Shown in pieces: positions 32,371-44,436 of a stretch of 64,000 nt of DNA. The DNA is from Chloroflexota bacterium. Lineage in GTDB: Bacteria > Chloroflexota > UBA11872. Each line of letters opens with the position of its first letter. Positions within the stretch are counted from its first letter, which is position 1. Below the pieces are notes generated by a model, which worked only from the letters and a program-made list of their open reading frames with translations, ran no database searches and was not told the origin of the DNA. Made by a program: the position numbers and the translations under genes. The DNA lies in NCBI GenBank assembly GCA_026708035.1, contig JAPOVQ010000001.1:151970-215969 (forward strand), given 5' to 3'.

Positions 32371-32724
32371 CTAGCGGCCCAGAATCCAGCGGACGTCCTC
32401 GCTCAGCATCTCCTCGTTCCACAAGGGGCTGAACGTGAGATCGAGATCCATGCTGCGCACGCCGGGGACGGCCTCCACCACCTGCTTCACCTGCTGCAGG
32501 ATTTGCGGTCCGGCCGGGCATCCGGGCGTCGTCAGGGTCATGGTCACCGACACGTCGTGGGCCTCGGACTCAGCGGGGGCCACGTCGATCTCGTAGATCA
32601 GTCCCAGGTCCACGATGTTGATGCCGATTTCAGGGTCGATCACCTCGCGCAGGGAGTCGCGAATCGTCTCTTCCGCCAGGGGTGCGTCCATCGTCGCCTC
32701 CAGCGCGATGCCTCTCATGCGCAA
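32371..32724 (-). CDS. DUF59 / SufT-MIP18-family Fe-S cluster assembly protein
   Basis: …VIDPEIGINIVDLGLIYEI…TLTTPGCPAG…; 117 aa. Confidence 0.65.
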   Translation of the reverse strand: MRMRGIALEATMDAPLAEETIRDSLREVIDPEIGINIVDLGLIYEIDVAPAESEAHDVSVTMTLTTPGCPAGPQILQQVKQVVEAVPGVRSMDLDLTFSPLWNEEMLSEDVRWILGR

Positions 32725-32763: not shown

Positions 32764-33492
32764 CTAGGCGCGCTCGTATCCCGGCAGGATTTCCGTGCCC
32801 GGATATCCGGCCGCGCGTCCCGCGGCGATCTCGGCCGTGTGGTCCCAGATCACGGCGTGCGGCTCCGCCGTCCACGCGCCTCGCGGCGCATCCCAGGTGA
32901 TCTCGGTCCAATGGGCCTGGTTGTAGGCGTTGGCTTCATACATCAATCCCACGCTGCCCGCCCGCAGCACTCGCGTGGGCCCGACCTGCAGGTCCAGCGG
33001 AGCGTGAATGTGGCCGACGACCAGCAGCGCCGGCCGCGGCGTGCCCATCAAGCGGTCGAGCTCCACCGGATCGGTGTCGGCCCAGATGAACTCGTCCAGA
33101 TTGACGCCGTTGGCGTGGCTGATGACCAGCAGCGGCGCGCCATCGATGCCCAGCTCAAGCCGGCGCGGCAGGGCCGCCGCGCGCGCGATGACCGCGTTCG
33201 GCAGCGCCTCGATCGTCCAGTCGAAGACTTCGAGGATGCGATCGCGCCATCGGCCGCCGGCGGGCGCCGGTGGGAACTCGCCGGTCCCGAGATCGCGCTC
33301 GGTGTTGCCGCAGAGGCAATAGGCGCCGATGCGCTGCAACTCCCGCCAAGTCTCCAGCGGTCGCGGCCCCCCCAGAATCTGGTCGCCATTGGACACGATC
33401 AGATCAAAGGGAGCACGGGTGTCGATGTCCCGCAGCACCGCGCGCAGCGCGGTCAGATTGGCATGGACATCGGACACGACGGCAATGTGCAT
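32764..33492 (-). CDS. metallophosphoesterase (calcineurin-like phosphodiesterase)
   Basis: MHIAVVSDVHAN … GDQILGGP … GNTE … VVGHIH metal-ligand motifs. Start at Met26 of the ORF. Confidence 0.7.
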   Translation of the reverse strand: MHIAVVSDVHANLTALRAVLRDIDTRAPFDLIVSNGDQILGGPRPLETWRELQRIGAYCLCGNTERDLGTGEFPPAPAGGRWRDRILEVFDWTIEALPNAVIARAAALPRRLELGIDGAPLLVISHANGVNLDEFIWADTDPVELDRLMGTPRPALLVVGHIHAPLDLQVGPTRVLRAGSVGLMYEANAYNQAHWTEITWDAPRGAWTAEPHAVIWDHTAEIAAGRAAGYPGTEILPGYERA

Positions 33493-33684
33493 GAGGCGCG
33501 TTGAGCGGGGACTTGGGGCGCGCGACAACGCAGCGGCCAGCCTCCCTCGCTGGCGAATGTACCGCACGGCATCGGTGAGCCGGAGCGTGAGCCGTCGCTA
33601 TCGCGTCGGTCCCGCTTACCGACAGGATTGAGCGATTGACGTAGTGGCGGTTCGCGAGCCGTTCCCCCACCATGAATCCAGGCT

Positions 33685-33765
33685 CCCCCAGATTCGACCG
33701 GACTGGATTCCGGCTTCCGCCGGAATGACGGAGGAGTGTCGCCATCGTCTCCTTTCGTGGGGACC
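33685..33765 (+). repeat. dispersed palindromic intergenic repeat, copy 4
   Basis: CCCAGATTCGACCGGACTGGATTCCGGCTTCCGCCGGAATGACGGAGGAGTGTCGCCATCGTCTCC, in a divergent intergenic region. Confidence 0.8.
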
Positions 33766-33966
33766 TCACCATAGTCCGCCCGGGAGGACTCCAGGTGCGC
33801 GGGGCAGCCGGTTGCGTTGCCATTGGCGGGTCTGTCCTGCAGCTTGGCTACGCCCAGGTTGCCCGGCACGAGAGCTTGCGTGATGCTTGCCCGCGTCTAC
33901 TTGTTGGATCGGGCTGCGGGCATCGCGCGGTGCGCCGCGCAAGCGCCTCCGTGGGAGGCATGGCCC

Positions 33967-35781
33967 ATGACCGTCCCTGCCGCCGCGCTCGGACTCCTGC
34001 TGGCATTGGGGCTCATGGCGTTCGCGTGCGACGCGCCCGCCGACTCGGCGGAAACGGCGGACGCGGCGCAGGCGAGAGCCACGGCTCAGCCAGCCACGCC
34101 CGTTGCCACGTCGGACCCGACCGCAGCGCCGAATGCCTTGCCCGCTGCGACACCTGACCCAATCCGGACCGCGCCGGTCTCGCCATCGCCGACCGCAATG
34201 CCGGACGCGACGGCAACGCGGACCGGCGCGCCCACCTCCAACCCTGACCGGGCGGTGCTCGTGGCGCTCTACCACGCGACCGACGGACCGAACTGGGCAA
34301 ACCACGACAACTGGCTGAGTGACGCGCCGTTGGGTGAATGGCACGGGGTCACCACGGACTCCGATGGCCGTGTCACGCGCCTGGCGCTCGATGACAATCA
34401 GTTGGTCGGGGAGATCCCGGCTGAGCTGGGAGGCCTCGCGCGTCTGGAGGCGCTGTGGCTCTCGGGGAACCAACTCAGCGGGGCGATCCCATCGGGATTG
34501 GGCAATCTCTCGCGGCTGCGACGACTGGAGATTCGCTTCAACCGGTTGCGTGGACCGATCCCGCCCACGTTGGGGCAGCTGGACAACCTGGAGCTCTTGG
34601 ATTTTCGTGGGAACCAACTGGACGGGCCGATCCCGCCCGAAGTGGGCCGGCTTTCAGATCTGATAGGGCTGGTCCTCCGGGACAACCAGCTGAGCGGGAC
34701 GATCCCGCCTGGGCTAAGCCAGCTCGCCAAGCTGGAACTCTTGGATCTTCGTGGGAATCTGCTGGACGGGCCGATCCCGCCGGGGCTGGGCCGCCTGGGC
34801 AACCTGCAAGAGCTGGTCCTATTCGGCAACCGGTTGAGCGGGCCAATTCCGCCAGAATTGGGTCAGCTCACCGAGCTGTACGGGCTGGCGCTTGGCTCCA
34901 ATCAACTCAGCGGGCCGATCCCGCCCGAACTGGGCCAGCTTGCGAACCTGGTCGGGCTGAACCTGACGGACAACCGGCTGAGCGGGCCGATCCCGCCCGA
35001 ATTGGGTTGGCTTTCGAATCTGGTCGGACTGGACCTCAGCGACAACCAGCTCGGCGGGCCGATACCTGCCGACCTCGGCCGACTGGCTGATCTGGACGAG
35101 CTGTGGCTGAGCGGCAACCAGCTGCGCGGAGCGATTCCTTCCAGTCTCGGTCGCCTCACCAGGTTGACGATGCTGCGCCTCGCCGGCGGCAACCGGTTCG
35201 CTGGATGCATCCCCGCAGCCTTGGCTGAGCTACCGCGCAGTGACCTCCAAGAGCTCGGCCTGCCGTTCTGCGCAGTTGCGGATCCGGCGTCGGCCGGGGG
35301 ACTGCGGGCCGCTATTGCCGCCGACCGCGCGGCACTGGTCGCGCTCTATCGCGCGACCGATGGCCCGAACTGGGTGCACAGCACCAACTGGCTCAGCGAG
35401 GCGCCCCTCGGCGAGTGGATCGGGGTCATCACGGATGTCAGCGGTCGCGTGACGGCGCTGGCGCTCGCGGAGAATCAACTCAGTGGACCGGTCCCGCGCG
35501 AACTCGGCCGTCTCTCCAGCCTGCGCGTGCTGGTTCTCGCGGGGAACCGGCTGCACGGGCCGATCCCGTCCGACTTCGGCAGCCTCGGCCAGCTGGTGCA
35601 CCTGCGGCTCGACCGCAACCATCTCAGTGGACCGATTCCGCCTGAGCTCGGCCAACTCTCGAATCTGCGGTCGCTCGAGCTCGCGTACAACCAGTTCACG
35701 GGCTGCATCCCCGAGGGGTTGGGAGACCTCGAGGAGAGCGACCTCGAAAGGCTTGGTCTGCCATTCTGTGGGGCGAGTTGA
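33967..35781 (+). CDS. secreted lipoprotein with two modules of plant-type leucine-rich repeats
   Basis: Lipobox LALGLMAFAC. Two modules, each consisting of an LRRNT-like cap (ALVALYxATDGPNW…NWLS.APLGEW.GV…GRVT.L.L), 24-residue LxxLxxLxLxxNQLSGPIPPELG repeats, and a C-cap GCIP…LPFC. Confidence 0.7.
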   Translation: MTVPAAALGLLLALGLMAFACDAPADSAETADAAQARATAQPATPVATSDPTAAPNALPAATPDPIRTAPVSPSPTAMPDATATRTGAPTSNPDRAVLVALYHATDGPNWANHDNWLSDAPLGEWHGVTTDSDGRVTRLALDDNQLVGEIPAELGGLARLEALWLSGNQLSGAIPSGLGNLSRLRRLEIRFNRLRGPIPPTLGQLDNLELLDFRGNQLDGPIPPEVGRLSDLIGLVLRDNQLSGTIPPGLSQLAKLELLDLRGNLLDGPIPPGLGRLGNLQELVLFGNRLSGPIPPELGQLTELYGLALGSNQLSGPIPPELGQLANLVGLNLTDNRLSGPIPPELGWLSNLVGLDLSDNQLGGPIPADLGRLADLDELWLSGNQLRGAIPSSLGRLTRLTMLRLAGGNRFAGCIPAALAELPRSDLQELGLPFCAVADPASAGGLRAAIAADRAALVALYRATDGPNWVHSTNWLSEAPLGEWIGVITDVSGRVTALALAENQLSGPVPRELGRLSSLRVLVLAGNRLHGPIPSDFGSLGQLVHLRLDRNHLSGPIPPELGQLSNLRSLELAYNQFTGCIPEGLGDLEESDLERLGLPFCGAS

Positions 35782-36176
35782 GTATGGATGGGCGGGCCGG
35801 CGTGCGACGGGCTCCGTGGGAGGCCCTGACAATGACCATCCGCGCCGCCGGGCTCGGAGTTGGGTGCACGTCCGCAACCCCGGAAACGTGCACGAGGCGT
35901 GCTGAAGGGGAACGGTTGCGCGTGAGGGCGCAGCGGCCGACCTGACCTCAGTTTCTGGCGGCTGAATCGCTCGGTGCCGGCCAGCCGAGTCGTGGGCGAG
36001 GCCAGATCCGCCGCTTTTGACGGGATTGACGGTGGAACGCGGCCGACGGGTCCGCCAGGCGATACCGCCCGGAGGCTTGGCCTTAGCGGCCAGCGCCCGG
36101 CGCAGAGGTTCCGAACGAACCGAGCAAAATCTATCGGTCGATCAGGTCCTTAGGTACCATGTCTCAAACGAGGTGA

Positions 36177-37355
36177 TTGCAAGCCGCAATAACCGTACCC
36201 ATGACCAATTGTGCCGCCGCGCTCGCGCTCCTTTTGGCAATGGCGCTCATGGCGGCCACGTGCGACGCGCCGGTGGACACGCCCGTGGCGATCCCTACAC
36301 CCGGATCTGCTGCCGCGGACCGGGTGGCTCTAGTCGCGCTCTACCACGCGACCGATGGACCGAATTGGACGGACAATCGAAACTGGCTCACCGATGTGCA
36401 CATCGGTGCCTGGTTCGGCGTCACTACCGTCCGCGGTCGGGTCACGGAACTCCGACTCGATGAGAATCAGTTGACCGGCACTATTCCGTCCACGCTGGGC
36501 CGCCTGACAAATCTGAGAAAGCTATCGCTTACATGGAATCAACTGACTGGGGCGATCCCGCCCGATCTCGGTCACCTCGCTCAACTACAAGAACTAGTCC
36601 TGGGTCACAACCAGTTGACTGGCACTATTCCGTCCACGCTGAGCGGCCTGACAAATCTGAAAACGCTCTGGCTCTCTTGGAATCAACTGACTGGAGCGAT
36701 CCAGCCCGATCTGGCCCACCTCACTCAACTGCAAGACTTGGGCCTCAGCAACAACCAGTTGAGCGGCGCCATTCCGTCCTGGCTGGGCAGCCTCGGCAAT
36801 CTGCACTCGCTGTCTCTCGAAGAAAACCAGCTCAGTGGAGCAATCCCGAGGATATTGGGCGACCTCCACAGGCTGCGGCATCTAAATCTCGCTGCCAACC
36901 ATCTGCAGGGGCCGATACCGCGCGAGCTGGGCCTCCTCGCTTCCCTGGAGGTGCTGGACCTGGCCGATAACCAGTTGCGAGGAGATCTTCCTCCCGAACT
37001 TGGTGGCCTCTCCCGACTAACCTCCTTGACGCTCGCCAGGAACAGGCTGCAGGGGGAAATACCACCTGAACTGGGTCGTCTGACCAACTTGAGAAGATTG
37101 TCGCTCGATGGCAACCAACTTCGTGGGACGATTCCGCCCCAACTGGGTAGTCTCACTCACCTAAGGGAGTTGAGCCTCAGAGACAATCGGCTAGACGGGA
37201 AGGTTCCGTCTGACCTGGGCCACTTAGCAAATCTGCAGCATGTGAATCTCGGTAGTACCAATCGACTCACCGGGTGCCTCCCCGCAAGGCTGCGTAACGC
37301 TCGGTTCAACGACCTCGAAGAGTTGGAGTTGCCGTTCTGCTGGTACACCAGTTGA
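36177..37355 (+). CDS. secreted lipoprotein with plant-type leucine-rich repeats (paralog, single module)
   Basis: Same cap/repeat/C-cap architecture (…ALVALYHATDGPNWTDNRNWLTD…; ends GCLPARL…LELPFCWYTS). GC content is visibly lower than the flanks. Confidence 0.7.
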   Translation: MQAAITVPMTNCAAALALLLAMALMAATCDAPVDTPVAIPTPGSAAADRVALVALYHATDGPNWTDNRNWLTDVHIGAWFGVTTVRGRVTELRLDENQLTGTIPSTLGRLTNLRKLSLTWNQLTGAIPPDLGHLAQLQELVLGHNQLTGTIPSTLSGLTNLKTLWLSWNQLTGAIQPDLAHLTQLQDLGLSNNQLSGAIPSWLGSLGNLHSLSLEENQLSGAIPRILGDLHRLRHLNLAANHLQGPIPRELGLLASLEVLDLADNQLRGDLPPELGGLSRLTSLTLARNRLQGEIPPELGRLTNLRRLSLDGNQLRGTIPPQLGSLTHLRELSLRDNRLDGKVPSDLGHLANLQHVNLGSTNRLTGCLPARLRNARFNDLEELELPFCWYTS

Positions 37356-37487
37356 AGCCTGACCCTGGGACCGGCACGAGTCGGTCCTTGCGCCAGGGCC
37401 CTCAGTGACAATCACTGGCCGGTCGAGTCACACGAAACCTCTTCCGATGCTCAGGCTGGTCGGTCGGCCCGTGCTACTCTGAAGCAT

Positions 37488-37515
37488 CGCGGCGTGATGC
37501 GCCGCGGTTTTGTTG
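37488..37515 (+). terminator. intrinsic terminator/attenuator-like hairpin immediately upstream of rpmI
   Basis: CGCGGCG-TGATG-CGCCGCG followed by GTTTTGTTG, ending 5 nt before the rpmI ATG. Confidence 0.5.
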
Positions 37516-37519
37516 TCCT

Positions 37520-37714
37520 ATGCCAAAACTCAAAACACGAAAAGCCGCCGTTAAGCGGCTGCGCAAGACCGCCAACGGCAAGGTGACCTGCGCCAAGAGC
37601 ACGGCGCAGACCCTGCGGCGCAAGAAGAGCCGCCGCGCTCGGCGCGCCAAGGGTCACGAGCAGCCGATCACCGGCGGTCAGCTCAAGCAGGCCAAGCGCC
37701 TGCTCGCCGGATAG
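37520..37714 (+). CDS. rpmI: 50S ribosomal protein L35
   Basis: MPKLKTRKAAVKRLRKTANGKV…; 64 aa, basic. Confidence 0.9.
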   Translation: MPKLKTRKAAVKRLRKTANGKVTCAKSTAQTLRRKKSRRARRAKGHEQPITGGQLKQAKRLLAG

Positions 37715-37726
37715 GGCGGACCGCCG

Positions 37727-38080
37727 ATGGCACGAGTCAAGCGCAGCGTCGCCAGCCGCAAGCGCCGCCGGCGCGTCCTCAAAGCCGTGCGGGGCCACAA
37801 GGGCGCCCGCAGCCGTCAGTTCAAGGCCGCCCACGAAGACCTGATGCACGCGCGGCAATACGCCTACGCCCACCGGCGCACGCGGCGCCGCGACATGCGG
37901 CGCGGCTGGATCCTGCGCATCAATGCGCGCGCTCGGGCGCTGGGCATGACCTACAGCCAGTTCATGCACGGTTTACGTCGGGCCAACATCGACCTCGACC
38001 GCAAGGTGCTGGCGGACCTGGCGCTCAACGAGCCCGAGGCCTTCGAAGACCTGGTGAAGGCGGCGCAAGCCGCCGCCTAG
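37727..38080 (+). CDS. rplT: 50S ribosomal protein L20
   Basis: MARVKRSVASRKRRRRVLKAVRGHKGARSRQFKAA…; 117 aa. Confidence 0.9.
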   Translation: MARVKRSVASRKRRRRVLKAVRGHKGARSRQFKAAHEDLMHARQYAYAHRRTRRRDMRRGWILRINARARALGMTYSQFMHGLRRANIDLDRKVLADLALNEPEAFEDLVKAAQAAA

Positions 38081-38093
38081 GCGCGGTGGGGCC

Positions 38094-38912
38094 GTGGCTC
38101 CGTCGCCGCTCATCCGCAGTGCTCGCAACCCGGCGGTTGCCCATGTTCGTTTGCTCCAACGCGGCAGCACGCGCCGCCGCGCCGGTCACACGGTCGTCGA
38201 AGGCCCGAAGCTCGTGGCCGAGGCATTGCGCGCCGGCGTGATCGTTTCCGTGCTGTGCACGGCGGAGCCGTCTCCGGCCGCGGCGGCAGTCGCCGACGAG
38301 GCCGCGGCGCAGGGGCTTTCCGTGCGCCGGTGCACCGACGGGATATTCGACGCTGTCGCCGACACCGAGACGCCCCAGGGAGTCCTGGCCGTGATCGCCA
38401 CGCCGGACCCGCCGCCGGTTTCGGGCCCCGCGTTGCTCCTGGTCGTTGACGGAGTGCAAGACCCGGGCAACGTCGGCGCCATGGTCCGCAGCGCCGCCGC
38501 GGCGGGCGCGACGGGCGTAGTCTGCGCCCCGGGCACGGCCGACGCCTACAGCCCCAAGGCCATGCGAGCGGGCGCGGGCGGGCAGTTTCGCGTGCCCATT
38601 CGGAAAGCGGCCGAACCGGCGGACCTCGAGTCGCTCGCCGACGATGTCGACATATATGCGGCCGTCACCGACGCCGATCTGACCTATCACGACATCGACT
38701 TGACTCGCCCCTGCGGACTGATCGTGGGCGCCGAATCGGCCGGTGTTTCGCCTGCGTGGCGCGCCGCGAGCCGCGCGACCGTCCGCGTGCCGATGCACGC
38801 CGAGGTCGAGTCGCTCAACGCGGCCGCCGCGGCCGCCGTTATCCTGTTCGAGGCCGCGCGGCAGCGCGTGGCTGCCTCTACCAACAAAGATCCTGGTGCG
38901 CGAGCGGATTGA
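38094..38912 (+). CDS. TrmH/SpoU-family RNA 2'-O-methyltransferase
   Basis: SPOUT motifs (LLVVDGVQDPGNVGAMVRSAAAAG … IVGAESAGVS … ESLNAAAAAAVILFE). Conserved position between rplT and pheS. Confidence 0.7.
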   Translation: MAPSPLIRSARNPAVAHVRLLQRGSTRRRAGHTVVEGPKLVAEALRAGVIVSVLCTAEPSPAAAAVADEAAAQGLSVRRCTDGIFDAVADTETPQGVLAVIATPDPPPVSGPALLLVVDGVQDPGNVGAMVRSAAAAGATGVVCAPGTADAYSPKAMRAGAGGQFRVPIRKAAEPADLESLADDVDIYAAVTDADLTYHDIDLTRPCGLIVGAESAGVSPAWRAASRATVRVPMHAEVESLNAAAAAAVILFEAARQRVAASTNKDPGARAD

Positions 38913-42468: not shown

Positions 42469-44436
42469 TTAGAGCGGGTAGCCCTGCACCCACACGTTCG
42501 TGAAGGTGACGCTGCCGCCCTCGCCCCAGTTCTTGCATTCCAGGCTGACGAGCGCCTCCGCGCCATAGGGCAGGTCTTCGGCCGCCGCTACGGTCACGCC
42601 ATTGATCGCAAGGCCGGCCCAGCCGTCGCGATAAGTGAAGCGAACGGCAAAGGGCCGTCCGTAGTCGATATCAGGAATCTGGCCCCATGGCCACTCTTGA
42701 ATGATGTCATACCTGCCGTTGGAGAACCGGCCCCACGTCAAACCAAAACTCTCGGTTCCGGAAGTGTCTGGTCGACCATGTATGCCGATGCCGATTCGGT
42801 CGTGGTTCTCCCAGCCCTCGTAGGCGCTGCGTAGATTGATGTCAACAATCGGGACTTGCCGTCCTGGGTTTTGATGCAGCACGACCGTTGCCTGCAACAT
42901 GAGCTCACGACCAAAGGCAGAGGCAGGTGTCAATTCGGTTTCGTAGCTGTCTTGACAGTCAATGTGGGCGCGACTGAACAGCAGAATGGGCCGAGGGGGT
43001 GGAAGGGACGTCGCGCCGCCGCTGCTGATGGTCTCAAGCCACGAATCGATTAAGGGCCGCGCGCGCTCGCTTGGAATCAGGAAGTTCGTGTTTTGAAGGT
43101 CGCTCAGGGATCCGACCGTGATGCCGACCACGTGCCCATCCAGCGTCGCGACCGGCCCGCCGCTGTTGCCGGGATTGAGCGCGGCGTCGGTCTGGAGATA
43201 TTTCCCGCCTGGAACGCTGATGCGGTTCGAAAGCAAGCCGGTGGTGACCGTTGGACTGGCGGCGCACGGCGAGTCTTTACCCGTGAGCGTCGCGCCGTGG
43301 CCCATGGCCACGAGCTGTGAACCAAGCGGCAGATCTGCCGAATTGCCCCAGGTAACCGGTACCGAGTGGGTCAATCCGTCGATGACCAGCAACGCCAGGT
43401 CGATGTCCGCATTGGCGGCAACCACCGAGGCCGTAGCCTGGTGCCCGGTGACCGTCGTGGCGGTGATCGTTTGGGCGCCCTCAACGACATGCCAGCTCGT
43501 GACGGCGTAGCCGTCGTCGGTAACGAAGAAGCCGGAGCCGCACTGCTTCAGGTCGGTCTCGATGCGTAGCAACGACGGCTGGAGGCGCTGCACCGTGCTC
43601 GCCACGTCGCCGGTCGCCGTGACGGCAGCGAGCGACCCACCCTGGTGGAGACGCGCCTGATCGCCGACGCTGAACGGGGGCTTCGAGGTGAAGGCCGGGA
43701 ATTGCTCCCAGGAGTTGCCGGGGTATTTGCGGTTGCGCAGGGTGTCGCCCAGCAAACGGAGCTTGACCGGCGAAGTCTCGGACTCCGGGTGATATTCCAG
43801 GACGGCGGCCTGGAAATACTGCCGAATGCGGCTGTCCACGGCCCGACCGGGGTCGTGCAGCACGGCCTGGTGGTGGTTGTCACGCCGTGCGTCGGACTTG
43901 GGATAGCCGAAGGAGTCCACGCCGCCAAGCCGGTGGAAGAAGTCCGCAAAACCAATTGAGACTCCCTCCACCGAAATGTTCGCCACCTTGTGGCCCCAGG
44001 GACCGAGGACTTCCCCCGGATGCGGGTTGGTGAAGTCCGGCTCAACGCCCTGGTCGATGGACCCGCCGAGGCCGCCGCCCAGATGGTCCCAGGCCAGGCG
44101 GCGCTGGAACGTGTGCCGACCGCCCTGCGGCGGCGGCTGCCAGTCGACGACGCCGCGCTGGTAGTACTGCGTCAGCGTGCCTCGGGTCTCCTCGAAGATC
44201 TCCGACGTGGGGAAGCCCCAGCGCTCGACGCCGCCGGTCCGGTCGAAGTTGGCCAGGAAATTGGCCTCGAAGGATGCGCCGTTGGTGAATGTGCCCGAGA
44301 GATTCAGGATGTTGTGCTGCAGCTCGGCGTAGTAGCGCACCGCCGTGACCTGCGCCGTGGCCGTGACGCCGAAGCCGAGCTCACGCGCGGCTGCGGGAGC
44401 CGCAGCGACCGCCGCGAGCAATAGAGCGACGGCCAC
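42469..44436 (-). CDS. secreted multidomain trypsin-like (S1/HtrA-like) serine peptidase with N-terminal LGFP-like repeats and a C-terminal domain of unknown function
   Basis: Signal peptide; repeats RWGFPTSE/SFGYPKSD; protease catalytic residues (TSWHVV, DIDLALL, GNSGGPV); ~190-aa C-terminal beta-rich domain (…FTYRDGWAGLAINGVTV…). Confidence 0.6.
   Translation of the reverse strand: MAVALLLAAVAAAPAAARELGFGVTATAQVTAVRYYAELQHNILNLSGTFTNGASFEANFLANFDRTGGVERWGFPTSEIFEETRGTLTQYYQRGVVDWQPPPQGGRHTFQRRLAWDHLGGGLGGSIDQGVEPDFTNPHPGEVLGPWGHKVANISVEGVSIGFADFFHRLGGVDSFGYPKSDARRDNHHQAVLHDPGRAVDSRIRQYFQAAVLEYHPESETSPVKLRLLGDTLRNRKYPGNSWEQFPAFTSKPPFSVGDQARLHQGGSLAAVTATGDVASTVQRLQPSLLRIETDLKQCGSGFFVTDDGYAVTSWHVVEGAQTITATTVTGHQATASVVAANADIDLALLVIDGLTHSVPVTWGNSADLPLGSQLVAMGHGATLTGKDSPCAASPTVTTGLLSNRISVPGGKYLQTDAALNPGNSGGPVATLDGHVVGITVGSLSDLQNTNFLIPSERARPLIDSWLETISSGGATSLPPPRPILLFSRAHIDCQDSYETELTPASAFGRELMLQATVVLHQNPGRQVPIVDINLRSAYEGWENHDRIGIGIHGRPDTSGTESFGLTWGRFSNGRYDIIQEWPWGQIPDIDYGRPFAVRFTYRDGWAGLAINGVTVAAAEDLPYGAEALVSLECKNWGEGGSVTFTNVWVQGYPL

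What the first reader, a model, noticed from the sequence alone, without database searches (positions are those of the whole stretch)
33967..37355. Tandem paralogous lipoproteins built from plant-type LRRs with LRRNT-like and Cys-containing C-caps
Both genes encode lipobox-anchored proteins whose repeats follow the 24-residue plant-specific LRR consensus (LxxLxxLxLxxNxLSGxIPxxLGxLxx). Each module opens with ALVALYxATDGPNW…NWLS…PLGEW.GVT.D..GRVT.L.L, which resembles the plant LRRNT_2 cap, and closes with GCIP….LxxLxLPFC. The first gene contains two complete modules (internal duplication); the second has one. The second gene is noticeably AT-richer than its surroundings, suggesting lateral origin. 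Such proteins are candidates for host or phage-receptor interaction.
Basis: seen in the sequence. Interest (0 to 1): 0.6.

Follow-up and report, generated by a model that had tools for sequence, protein, structure and literature searches.

The report
Tandem plant-type LRR surface proteins
Two neighbouring genes of a probably sponge-associated Chloroflexota bacterium encode exported, probably lipid-anchored proteins built from plant-type leucine-rich repeats; this is an ordinary member of a very large bacterial family already known to be enriched in sponge symbionts.

Summary
Gene 1 (33967-35781, 604 aa) and gene 2 (36201-37355, 384 aa) are capped arrays of exactly 24-residue repeats matching the plant-specific LRR consensus. 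All LRR Pfam models pass. The best sequence and fold matches in the PDB are all plant receptor-kinase ectodomains, and AlphaFold models are confident (pLDDT 94 and 88).

The cap claims hold only partly. The N-caps fail Pfam LRRNT_2 and lack its cysteine pair, but are 53% identical to caps of relatives that pass it. The C-cap (GCIP-x-LPFC, cysteines 21 apart) is a conserved bacterial feature, unlike the plant C-cap. Lipoprotein status is likely but unproven, and gene 2 has Thr at position -1.

The window matches an ENA metagenome scaffold exactly. Its relatives are Chloroflexota MAGs whose names fit sponge datasets, where LRR "eukaryotic-like proteins" are a known enriched class. The N-cap alone matches 27,658 protein clusters, so the module is commonplace.

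The added point is the locus. Gene 1 is conserved across related genomes (80% aa, dN/dS 0.34). The downstream slot varies from no gene to a 5.5-kb stretch holding one LRR gene plus mobile-element genes. It keeps a conserved signal-peptide 5' end, and gene 2's body is a GC3 outlier (0.68 vs 0.82-0.95). Function, possibly host binding, is inferred only.

The parts
33967..35781 (+). Gene 1: 604-aa two-module LRR protein (CDS including stop)
   Evidence: ORF; GGGAGG 8 nt upstream of the ATG; same 604-aa gene call on the identical ENA scaffold; Pfam LRR_1 E=6e-53; AF2 pLDDT 87.8
33967..34029 (+). Gene 1 signal peptide ending in Cys21 (MTVPAAALGLLLALGLMAFAC|DAPAD), a likely lipobox
   Evidence: PROSITE-like lipobox pattern met but no K/R; orthologues MTIR...LMAAAC pass fully; Cys21 is the only Cys outside the two C-cap pairs
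34030..34248 (+). Pro/Thr/Ala-rich disordered tether (aa 22-94)
   Evidence: pLDDT 35-50 over residues 1-90; fastest-evolving part after the signal peptide, dN/dS 0.57
34249..34371 (+). N-cap A (aa 95-135), a Cys-less LRRNT_2-related cap
   Evidence: Motif; helix 93-104 then beta strands; 53% identity to the LRRNT_2-positive cap of P0088; no direct PF08263 hit
34372..35163 (+). LRR array A: 11 canonical 24-residue plant-type LRRs (aa 136-399)
   Evidence: Exact 24-residue spacing; per-repeat pattern of two strands plus a short helix; 144-bp and 72-bp tandem periodicity at 70-75% match
35164..35274 (+). C-cap A (aa 400-436): modified 12th LRR plus half-repeat, Cys414 and Cys435
   Evidence: GCIPAALAELPRSDLQELGLPFC; Cys pair at +21 spacing is conserved across the family
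35326..35448 (+). N-cap B (aa 454-494)
   Evidence: Motif; 73% identical to N-cap A; predicted helix 440-463 runs from the linker into the cap
35449..35778 (+). LRR array B (3 canonical LRRs) plus C-cap B with Cys580 and Cys601 (aa 495-604)
   Evidence: pLDDT about 97
35796..35860 (+). About 60-bp remnant copy of the gene 1 5' end (Shine-Dalgarno-like motif, ATG, about 10 codons 'MTIRAAGLG'), just after the gene 1 stop
   Evidence: DNA alignment with the 5' ends of gene 1, gene 2 and orthologues; read as a scar of tandem duplication or deletion (inference)
36201..37355 (+). Gene 2: 384-aa one-module LRR protein (CDS including stop; alternative TTG start at 36177)
   Evidence: ORF; 384-aa gene call; Pfam LRR_1 E=7e-45; AF2 pLDDT 94.1, pTM 0.87
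36201..36263 (+). Gene 2 signal peptide ending in Cys21 (MTNCAAALALLLAMALMAATC|DAPVD), a non-canonical lipobox with Thr at -1
   Evidence: the DNA is 80-97% identical to the 5' end of the second gene in L005
36318..36440 (+). Gene 2 N-cap (aa 40-80)
   Evidence: Motif; helix 37-50 then strands 74-77 and 80-85; its C-terminal half aligns in register with the FLS2 N-cap
36441..37232 (+). Gene 2 LRR array: 11 canonical 24-residue LRRs (aa 81-344)
   Evidence: includes a 144-bp (two-LRR) tandem duplication at 36468-36793 with 81% matches
37233..37352 (+). Gene 2 C-cap (aa 345-384), Cys359 and Cys380 (GCLPARLRNARFNDLEELELPFC)
36283..37461 (.). Lineage-specific variable segment (gene 2 body plus 106 bp) with no nucleotide match in related genomes
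   Evidence: blastn against L001-L006; identity profile breaks at about 36290; GC3 0.65 in the body

Best explanation
These are two tandem genes for exported, cell-surface leucine-rich-repeat binding proteins of a Chloroflexota bacterium that most likely lives in a marine sponge.

Each protein has four parts. First, a signal peptide ending in an invariant cysteine, probably lipid-modified so that the protein is tethered to the membrane. Second, a disordered Pro/Thr/Ala-rich spacer. Third and fourth, one module (gene 2) or two modules (gene 1) made of a helical N-cap, a curved solenoid of 24-residue plant-type LRRs, and a C-cap probably stapled by a disulfide.

The solenoids would act as protein- or peptide-binding surfaces held away from the cell. 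They belong to the 'eukaryotic-like protein' repertoire thought to mediate symbiont-host recognition or adhesion.

The locus is a turnover site. Gene 1 is kept in all close relatives. The downstream slot keeps its promoter-proximal signal-peptide end, but its LRR body is replaced, expanded or lost between genomes.

Shown here: gene structure, repeat class, fold, family size, locus variability and composition. Inferred: lipidation, the disulfides, surface exposure, the sponge habitat of this particular sample, and any host ligand.
For: - Repeat class and fold: exact 24-residue spacing and PS-type consensus. LRR Pfam models pass. AF2 pLDDT is 94.1 and 87.8, with two strands and a short helix per repeat. 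The top 50 Foldseek PDB hits are all plant LRR receptor ectodomains, with TM up to 0.82 and 31-40% identity. The top 40 phmmer PDB hits are all plant, led by GSO1 at 6e-147.
- Export and anchoring: n-h-c signal peptides ending in Cys21 followed by DAP.D are conserved in gene 1, gene 2 and every relative. Orthologues pass a PROSITE-like lipobox rule, and 21 of 119 family homologues carry lipoboxes. Cys21 is the only unpaired Cys in the mature proteins. The tether is disordered.
- C-cap disulfide: 213 of 278 GC[LIVF]P motifs in 270 family proteins have the next Cys at +20 to +22, and 130 of 141 L.LPxC ends have the upstream Cys, at a background Cys frequency of 1%.
- Habitat and class: the window is 100% identical to an ENA scaffold. 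Relatives are Chloroflexota MAGs named COS3_bin_17 and RHO3_bin_74, with more distant ones in Ca. Palauibacter and Gemmatimonadaceae. These names fit the sponge dataset of PMC8163846, which reports LRR proteins enriched in sponge MAGs. PMC6306507 reports LRR genes in sponge Chloroflexi.
- Locus turnover: relatives hold no second gene, a 966-aa ORF, or, in L001/L005, a 656-669-aa LRR gene followed by two small ORFs, an IS1-like transposase and DNA methyltransferase genes, with a third LRR gene (919 aa) upstream of the gene 1 orthologue. Homology breaks just after the signal peptide. A remnant 5' end lies at 35796-35860. Tandem 144-bp duplications are present.
Against: - No experiment or expression data were available.
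- The window's two signal peptides lack the Arg found in orthologues, and gene 2 has Thr at -1, which standard lipobox rules reject. Lgt and LspA were not looked for in the genome.
- An Ala-x-Ala-type signal peptidase I site overlaps the lipobox in gene 1, so a soluble secreted protein is possible.
- Among four gene 1 orthologues, the concave-face variable positions evolve more slowly (dN/dS 0.29) than the convex and loop positions (0.45). The classic binding face therefore shows no arms-race signature.
- The sponge origin of this sample rests on MAG and sample names, not on metadata I could read (searches found nothing).
Confidence: 0.6

Rival explanations
1. The proteins are envelope or extracellular binding modules with a purely bacterial role, such as cell-cell adhesion in aggregates, binding of peptides or polymers from dissolved organic matter, or scaffolding of envelope enzymes. 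They would have no specific role toward a host.
For: The cap-plus-LRR module is extremely widespread: 27,658 cluster representatives at E<=1e-3, with up to 20 modules per protein. It occurs in many metagenomes that are not obviously host-associated. Gene 1 evolves under moderate purifying selection with no concave-face diversification. Neighbouring genes are housekeeping (rpmI, rplT, pheST, nuoEF).
Against: The closest relatives found are all in MAGs named like sponge-derived bins. LRR proteins are statistically enriched in sponge-associated over seawater MAGs in the literature. Presence/absence turnover of the second gene is typical of niche-interaction genes.
Confidence: 0.25
2. Gene 2, or the whole family, is a recent horizontal acquisition from a plant or another eukaryote, which would explain the plant-type repeats and the low GC.
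For: The best PDB matches by sequence and fold are exclusively plant receptor kinases at 31-40% identity. The gene 2 body has GC3 0.65-0.68 against 0.82-0.95 for neighbours, and has no nucleotide match in sister genomes.
Against: Gene 2 carries a bacterial signal peptide whose DNA is 80-97% identical to that of relatives' second genes. Its N-cap lacks the plant Cys pair and its C-cap is the bacterial GCxP-x-LPFC type. Its identity to gene 1 and to thousands of bacterial homologues (47-54%) exceeds its identity to plant proteins. Second-slot genes in relatives are also lower in GC (0.63-0.65), so the shift is a property of the slot. No donor above 48% identity was found in JGI metagenomes.
Confidence: 0.05
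3. The proteins are phage-related: a receptor exploited by phages, or a defence or decoy component.
For: Surface-exposed variable proteins are common phage receptors. There is weak similarity to PHROG_6688, a phage protein family of unknown function. An IS1-like transposase and DNA methyltransferase genes lie next to the LRR genes in L001/L005.
Against: The PHROG match covers only the LRR region. There are no PADLOC hits and no relatives in 2.9 million viral contigs. No phage genes flank the window's locus.
Confidence: 0.05

Closest known systems
Plant-specific (PS) class LRR ectodomains of plant receptor kinases and PGIP (for example GSO1, FLS2, ERL1/2, MIK2, HSL1)
   Same: The 24-residue repeat and consensus LxxLxLxxNxL(t/s)GxIPxxLGxLxx are the same. 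Each repeat has two strands and a short helix. These are the best sequence hits (E down to 6e-147) and the best fold hits (TM up to 0.82, RMSD 1.4-1.9 A over about 330 columns).
   Different: There is no transmembrane helix or kinase. The protein has a bacterial signal peptide with an invariant Cys instead. The N-cap lacks the conserved Cys pair and fails PF08263. The C-cap Cys spacing is 21 residues, which from my own knowledge differs from the short plant 'C-x6-7-C' motif. Modules are concatenated (cap-LRR-cap, cap-LRR-cap), which plant ectodomains do not do.
Eukaryotic-like (LRR) proteins of sponge symbionts (Robbins 2021 PMC8163846; Bayer 2018 PMC6306507; PMC11706023)
   Same: The proteins carry the Pfam LRR domains (PF00560, PF12799, PF13855) that these studies use to define the LRR class. 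The host phylum is the same: Chloroflexi/Chloroflexota MAGs named like sponge bins.
   Different: Those studies count domains and do not describe the capped-module anatomy, the lipoprotein-type signal peptide or the variable locus. No LRR ELP function has been shown experimentally; the phagocytosis evidence they cite is for ankyrin proteins.
Bacteroides eggerthii LRR protein, PDB 4eco (structural-genomics 'uncharacterized protein'), and Pfam LRR_10 (PF18805)
   Same: This is the only solved bacterial protein whose N-terminal region aligns with the whole cap profile, positions 2-44. Twelve of 58 family caps weakly touch LRR_10.
   Different: The matches are not significant: E=0.23 for 4eco, and 13-18 bits against a 30-bit cut-off for LRR_10. 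The 4eco cap has extra insertions.
Xanthomonas type III effectors XopAC/AvrAC, XopAE and XopL; Listeria internalins; Leptospira LIC LRR proteins
   Same: These are bacterial LRR proteins used in host interaction. They share sub-threshold LRR-region similarity (NCBIfam 58-124 bits; LIC11098 at E=3e-52).
   Different: All NCBIfam scores are far below the family cut-offs of 450-1600 bits. Those proteins have other repeat classes, other effector domains, and different secretion routes (type III or sortase). There is no evidence of a type III signal here.

Membership tests
Plant-specific (PS) class of LRRs (Kobe & Kajava / Matsushima classification) | Repeat length 23-25 residues, typically 24 | tested here: met
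   All canonical repeats are spaced exactly 24 residues apart in both genes.
Plant-specific (PS) class of LRRs (Kobe & Kajava / Matsushima classification) | Consensus LxxLxLxxNxL(t/s)GxIPxxLGxLxx | tested here: met
   Per-position table: L1, L4, L6, N9, L11, G13, I15, P16, L19, G20 and L22 are near-invariant, with S/T/other at position 12. Consensus quoted from PMC2946307.
Plant-specific (PS) class of LRRs (Kobe & Kajava / Matsushima classification) | Variable segment forms a short (3-10) helix with an extra beta element; overall fold like PGIP or plant receptor ectodomains | tested here: met
   DSSP on the AF2 models gives 'EEE----EEEE---HHHHH' per repeat. The top 50 Foldseek PDB hits are all plant LRR ectodomains. 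This is prediction, not experiment.
Pfam LRRNT_2 (PF08263) N-terminal cap | Score at or above the gathering threshold (20.7 bits) against the PF08263 model | tested here: not met
   None of the three window caps hit at E<=10 and neither whole protein hits at E<=1. Only 6 of 58 family caps hit.
Pfam LRRNT_2 (PF08263) N-terminal cap | Conserved cysteine pair flanking W.GV.C | tested here: not met
   The window has '..PLGEWHGVTTD..' where the LRRNT_2-positive homologue P0088 has '..PCENEWYGVTCN..'. There is no Cys in any window N-cap.
Pfam LRRNT_2 (PF08263) N-terminal cap | Homology to bona fide LRRNT_2 caps (helix, then a W-rich loop, then a strand leading into the first LRR) | tested here: inconclusive
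   Transitive link: 53% identity, E 9e-17, to the P0088 cap, which scores 63 bits on PF08263. Directly, the cap profile hits plant N-caps in register but only at E 0.45-0.75. A helix plus strands is predicted.
Bacterial lipoprotein (Lgt/LspA substrate) | Signal peptide with a positively charged n-region and a hydrophobic h-region | tested here: inconclusive
   The h-region is present. The window's gene 1 and gene 2 have no Lys/Arg before it, while orthologues have MTIR/MTHR.
Bacterial lipoprotein (Lgt/LspA substrate) | Lipobox [LVI..][ASTVI..][GAS]-C with Cys at +1 | tested here: inconclusive
   Gene 1 'MAFAC' fits a PROSITE PS51257-like pattern. Gene 2 'MAATC' fails at -1 (Thr). Cys +1 is invariant in all relatives. 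No dedicated predictor was available.
Bacterial lipoprotein (Lgt/LspA substrate) | Genome encodes Lgt and LspA; the protein is acylated | not tested
   The window's other ORFs were not searched for lgt or lspA and the rest of the genome was not available. Acylation needs experiment.
Sponge-symbiont eukaryotic-like protein (LRR class) | Contains Pfam LRR domains PF00560, PF12799 or PF13855 (the operational definition in PMC11706023) | tested here: met
   All three pass their cut-offs in both proteins. Definition quoted.
Sponge-symbiont eukaryotic-like protein (LRR class) | Encoded by a sponge-associated microbe | tested here: inconclusive
   The window matches ENA scaffold SHAF22-1_SAMEA7723695 exactly. 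Relatives are MAGs COS3_bin_17 and RHO3_bin_74, and one ENA label reads ROBB21. These fit the sponge species of PMC8163846. Accession searches in papers found nothing.
Xanthomonas XopAC/XopAE/XopL effectors and Listeria internalins (NCBIfam) | Score at or above the NCBIfam curated cut-off | tested here: not met
   The best score is 124 bits against a 600-bit cut-off (XopAE). All others are also far below, and the similarity is confined to the LRR region.

The most novel reading that the evidence does not exclude
The slot downstream of gene 1 could be a cassette-exchange site. It has a fixed promoter-proximal signal-peptide and lipobox 5' end, behind which whole capped-LRR bodies are swapped, duplicated or deleted by recombination among paralogues. 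That would give this symbiont lineage strain-level variation of one surface ligand-binding protein, a slow genomic analogue of antigenic or adhesin variation tuned to different sponge hosts.

The evidence does not exclude this. Homology breaks exactly after the signal peptide. Slot content differs in every relative. A remnant 5' end lies between the genes. The slot genes share a lower GC.
Probability: 0.15. Interest if true: 0.55.

Novelty: new member of a known kind. Interest (0 to 1): 0.25.

Why it matters
On its own it matters little. It adds two well-resolved examples to a huge bacterial family of plant-type LRR proteins, in a setting (probable sponge symbionts) where such 'eukaryotic-like' proteins are already catalogued.

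Three points have some use:
- The repeating unit of the family is a discrete capped module: a Cys-less LRRNT_2-like N-cap, PS-type LRRs, and a C-cap with a conserved Cys pair 21 residues apart. Current Pfam models cover this module poorly, although the cap alone marks more than 27,000 protein clusters.
- In this lineage the proteins look lipid-anchored rather than injected. That bears on how LRR ELPs could meet host factors.
- The locus shows conserved-versus-variable partitioning, which could guide the choice of candidates for host-binding experiments.

Tried and rejected
- Direct Pfam test of the three caps against LRRNT_2 at E<=10: no hit, only weak LRR_10.
- Cap-only profile against PDB sequences: the right regions of plant receptors and 4eco came up, but at non-significant E-values of 0.23-0.75.
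- Test for diversifying selection on the concave face of gene 1, using Nei-Gojobori on four orthologues split by repeat position: negative. Concave x positions give 0.29, other x positions 0.45, scaffold 0.08.
- Search for a donor or close relative of the gene 2 body: the best hit in JGI metagenome contigs is 48% identity, and viral contigs give nothing. The big protein search was saturated by LRR words, so even the self-hit was absent from the top 120.
- Phage or defence link: no PADLOC hits, and the PHROG similarity is limited to the LRRs.
- Rfam on 33300-38200, including the conserved stem-loop before rpmI: no family at E<=1.
- Sigma-70 promoter scan: nothing above the shuffle expectation.
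- Literature look-up of sample, run and MAG accessions: no paper found.
- The AFDB50 fold library was unavailable.
- Model coordinates are not exposed, so Cys-Cys distances could not be measured.
- TTG 36177 was rejected as the gene 2 start. The GAGGTGA motif abuts it with no spacer, and both the public gene call and the orthologue alignment favour ATG 36201.

Full report
**1. What is there**

- Gene 1 runs from ATG 33967, which has GGGAGG 8 nt upstream, to the stop at 35781 (604 aa).
- Gene 2 ends at 37355. The mechanical ORF starts at TTG 36177. The public gene call on the identical scaffold starts at ATG 36201 (384 aa). The alignment of 5' ends with orthologues also puts the conserved 'CCCATGACC' start there.

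Splitting the proteins on the LxxLxLxxN motif gives repeats spaced exactly 24 residues apart.

- Gene 1 has 11 canonical repeats plus a modified 12th that forms the C-cap. A second module follows with 3 canonical repeats plus a C-cap.
- Gene 2 has 11 canonical repeats plus a C-cap.
- Scaffold positions L1, L4, L6, N9, L11, G13, I15, P16, L19, G20 and L22 are almost invariant. This is the plant-specific class consensus LxxLxLxxNxL(t/s)GxIPxxLGxLxx as published (PMC2946307).
- No other ORF in the 64-kb window has the cap or repeat motif.

**2. Is it an LRR solenoid of the plant type?**

Yes, on every test available.

- Pfam LRR_1, LRR_4, LRR_8 and LRR_14 all pass their curated cut-offs (E = 6e-53 to 1e-24).
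- Against all PDB sequences, the 40 best hits to gene 2 are plant receptor kinases or receptor-like proteins: GSO1 at 6e-147, then FLS2, ERL2, MIK2, HSL1, PEPR1 and others. The first non-plant protein, Leptospira LIC11098, comes at 3e-52, followed by SHOC2.
- AlphaFold2 gives pLDDT 94.1 and pTM 0.87 for gene 2.
- For gene 1 it gives pLDDT 87.8. Residues 1-90 are disordered and both modules score about 97-98.
- Each repeat is predicted as two short strands plus a five-residue helix.
- The 50 best Foldseek matches in the PDB are all plant LRR ectodomains, with TM up to 0.82, RMSD 1.4-1.9 A over about 330 columns, and 31-40% identity.

**3. The caps**

*N-cap.* The three caps, (A/P)DRxxLVALYxATDGPNW..NWL..W.GV...GRV, do not reach Pfam LRRNT_2 even at E<=10. 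They only brush LRR_10 at 15-18 bits against a 30-bit cut-off.

- A 44-column profile of 58 caps from the family (alignment A1) finds only N-cap regions in the PDB. These are the Bacteroides protein 4eco over the full cap length, and TMK1/3, BRL3 and PEPR1 over the W.GV.C half. All are at E = 0.23-0.75, which is not significant.
- Six of the 58 family caps do hit LRRNT_2, the best at 1.4e-8. These are the ones that carry the plant-like Cys pair.
- Homologue P0088 scores 63 bits on LRRNT_2 at residues 23-63. The window's cap aligns to that stretch at 53% identity, E 9e-17, with the two cysteines replaced by Leu and Thr.
- In the FLS2 alignment the cap's C-terminal half is in register with the plant cap.

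So the N-cap is best described as a Cys-less relative of LRRNT_2. Homology is supported through intermediates, but family membership by the model's own threshold is not met.

*C-cap.* The sequences are GCIPAALAELPRSDLQELGLPFC, GCIPEGLGDLEESDLERLGLPFC and GCLPARLRNARFNDLEELELPFC.

- In 270 family proteins, 213 of 278 GC[LIVF]P motifs have the next Cys 20-22 residues on (173 at exactly 21).
- 130 of 141 L.LPxC ends have the upstream Cys. The overall Cys frequency is 1%.
- This co-occurrence at fixed spacing, close to one solenoid turn, argues for a disulfide between the last two coils.
- After a C-cap, the protein either ends (39 cases) or starts a new N-cap within 60 residues (86 of 173 cases). 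Cap-LRR-cap is therefore a discrete unit.
- This C-cap is not the plant type. Plant caps have a short Cys-Cys spacing, which I state from my own knowledge.

**4. Export and anchoring**

Both proteins begin with a hydrophobic signal peptide ending in Cys21 followed by DAP.D. The same holds for every relative in this lineage (MTIR...LMAAAC|DAPAD, MTHR...LMAATC|DAPVD).

- Cys21 is the only cysteine in the mature proteins outside the C-cap pairs.
- Under a PROSITE PS51257-like rule the orthologues pass. Gene 1 passes the pattern but has no Lys/Arg. Gene 2 and the other 'LMAATC' genes fail only because of Thr at -1.
- 21 of 119 family homologues have clear lipoboxes.
- The segment after the Cys is Pro/Thr/Ala-rich, disordered and fast-evolving (dN/dS 0.57), like a tether.

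Lipid anchoring is therefore likely. It remains unproven, and is non-canonical for gene 2.

**5. Where it comes from, and how common it is**

Window 27727-48080 is 100% identical to ENA scaffold SHAF22-1_SAMEA7723695_METAG-scaffold_6.

- Genomes with the same L20 protein share about 91% nucleotide identity in the flanks. They are Chloroflexota MAGs: COS3_bin_17, RHO3_bin_74, jk18xAbins.3 and a 3.19-Mb contig.
- More distant relatives of gene 1 sit in Ca. Palauibacter and Gemmatimonadaceae COS4_bin_9.
- The names fit the sponge species Coscinoderma matthewsi and Rhopaloeides odorabile of Robbins et al. 2021. That study reports LRR proteins enriched in sponge-associated MAGs (PMC8163846).
- Bayer et al. 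2018 found LRR genes in sponge Caldilineae and SAR202 (PMC6306507).
- PMC11706023 defines the LRR class of eukaryotic-like domains by the same Pfam families that hit here.
- The sponge origin of the window's own sample is an inference. I could not find its metadata.

The N-cap profile alone matches 27,658 of 1.84 billion cluster representatives at E<=1e-3, and 11,145 at <=1e-10. Some proteins carry up to 20 caps. The module and its concatenation are commonplace.

**6. The locus**

The interval between the metallophosphoesterase gene and rpmI differs in every related genome.

| Locus | Content of the interval |
|---|---|
| Window | gene 1 + gene 2 |
| L003/L007 | gene 1 orthologue only |
| L004/L006 | gene 1 orthologue + a 966-aa ORF |
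| L001/L005/L010 | three LRR genes, then two small ORFs, an IS1-like transposase and N6/N4 methyltransferase genes |
| L011 | a second open frame of 1408 aa with 39 LRRs and 4 N-caps |

- Gene 1 is the conserved member. It is 79-81% identical in amino acids to its orthologues. Its dN/dS is 0.33-0.35, against 0.08-0.17 for pheS and pheT, at similar dS.
- Within its repeats, scaffold positions have dN/dS 0.08, concave-face x positions 0.29, and convex or loop x positions 0.45. There is no sign of diversifying selection on the classic binding face.
- Gene 2's 5' end, covering the upstream region and signal peptide up to about 36290, is 80-97% identical to the second gene of L005. Beyond that point identity falls to 50-65%, and blastn finds nothing until 37461.
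- The gene 2 body has GC3 0.65, and the gene overall 0.68. Neighbours have 0.82-0.95 and gene 1 has 0.80.
- Second-slot genes of relatives are also lower in GC (0.63-0.65 against 0.68). The shift therefore belongs to the slot rather than proving a foreign donor. No relative closer than 48% identity was found.
- A remnant of about 60 bp of a gene 1-type 5' end lies right after the gene 1 stop (35796-35860).
- 144-bp (two-LRR) tandem duplications are visible, at 81% match in gene 2 and 70% in gene 1.
- Together these indicate duplication, deletion and recombination among tandem paralogues.
- The exact gene 2 protein occurs in 8 contigs; the four places shown, from four samples, all have the same context.

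**7. Function**

The best-supported reading is a pair of surface-tethered binding solenoids belonging to the symbiont's eukaryotic-like protein repertoire.

- Host binding is the leading hypothesis from the context and the literature. No LRR ELP has been functionally tested in the papers read; the phagocytosis evidence there is for ankyrin proteins.
- A purely bacterial or environmental binding role is a serious rival, given how widespread the module is.
- Plant-to-bacterium transfer of gene 2 is unlikely. It has a bacterial signal peptide and bacterial-type caps, and it is more similar to bacterial paralogues than to plant proteins.
- A phage-related role has no support.

**8. Verdict**

This is a new member of a known kind: a bacterial plant-type LRR protein, an ELP of a probable sponge symbiont. 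Two features lift it slightly above routine: the cleanly defined capped module that Pfam covers poorly, and the conserved-5'-end, variable-body slot next to a conserved paralogue. Interest is low to moderate (0.25).

Noticed in passing
window 35796-35860: A copy of about 60 bp of the gene 1 5' end lies just after the gene 1 stop. It holds a GGGAGG motif, an ATG and about 10 codons reading 'MTIRAAGLG', and opens only a 36-codon frame. It looks like a scar of a lost or recombined tandem LRR gene.
   Followed up: partly
window 42469-44436 (- strand): A 655-aa protein with a trypsin-like protease domain (Pfam Trypsin/Trypsin_2 in the public gene table) sits between pheT and the glutaredoxin gene. 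The whole segment 42450-44659 has no match in L001, L003, L004, L005 or L006. Its GC3 (0.80) is lower than that of its neighbours. It is a second lineage-specific insertion of a probably secreted protein.
   Followed up: partly
window 37486-37508: A 10-bp GC-rich stem-loop followed by TTTGTTGT lies immediately before the rpmI start at 37520, within the block conserved with relatives from 37462 on. It could be the gene 2 terminator or an rpmI-rplT leader. No Rfam family matches it, and no infC lies upstream of rpmI here.
   Followed up: partly
L003 2638-7565; L004/L006 1-3918: In related genomes the FeS_assembly_P gene (106 aa) and an adjacent gene of about 245 aa with no Pfam hit are duplicated upstream of the metallophosphoesterase gene. 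The window has a single copy at 32371-32691. The upstream flank of the LRR locus is therefore also structurally unstable.
   Followed up: no
L001/L005 6380-9608: In COS3_bin_17-type genomes the LRR gene cluster is followed by two small ORFs (110 and 104 aa), an IS1-like transposase (faint Pfam hit) and, in L005, two N6/N4 DNA methyltransferase genes. These are mobile or restriction-modification-like elements inserted in the same slot that holds gene 2 in the window.
   Followed up: no
window 33967-33978 and 36201-36212: Both window genes have lost the n-region arginine that their closest relatives keep: MTVP against MTIR, and MTNC against MTHR. Whether this weakens export in this lineage is unknown.
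   Followed up: no
P0121 (2901 aa) and others: Some metagenomic proteins carry up to 20 copies of the same N-cap, making giant concatenations of capped LRR modules of 2,000-4,900 aa. Their sources and functions were not examined.
   Followed up: no
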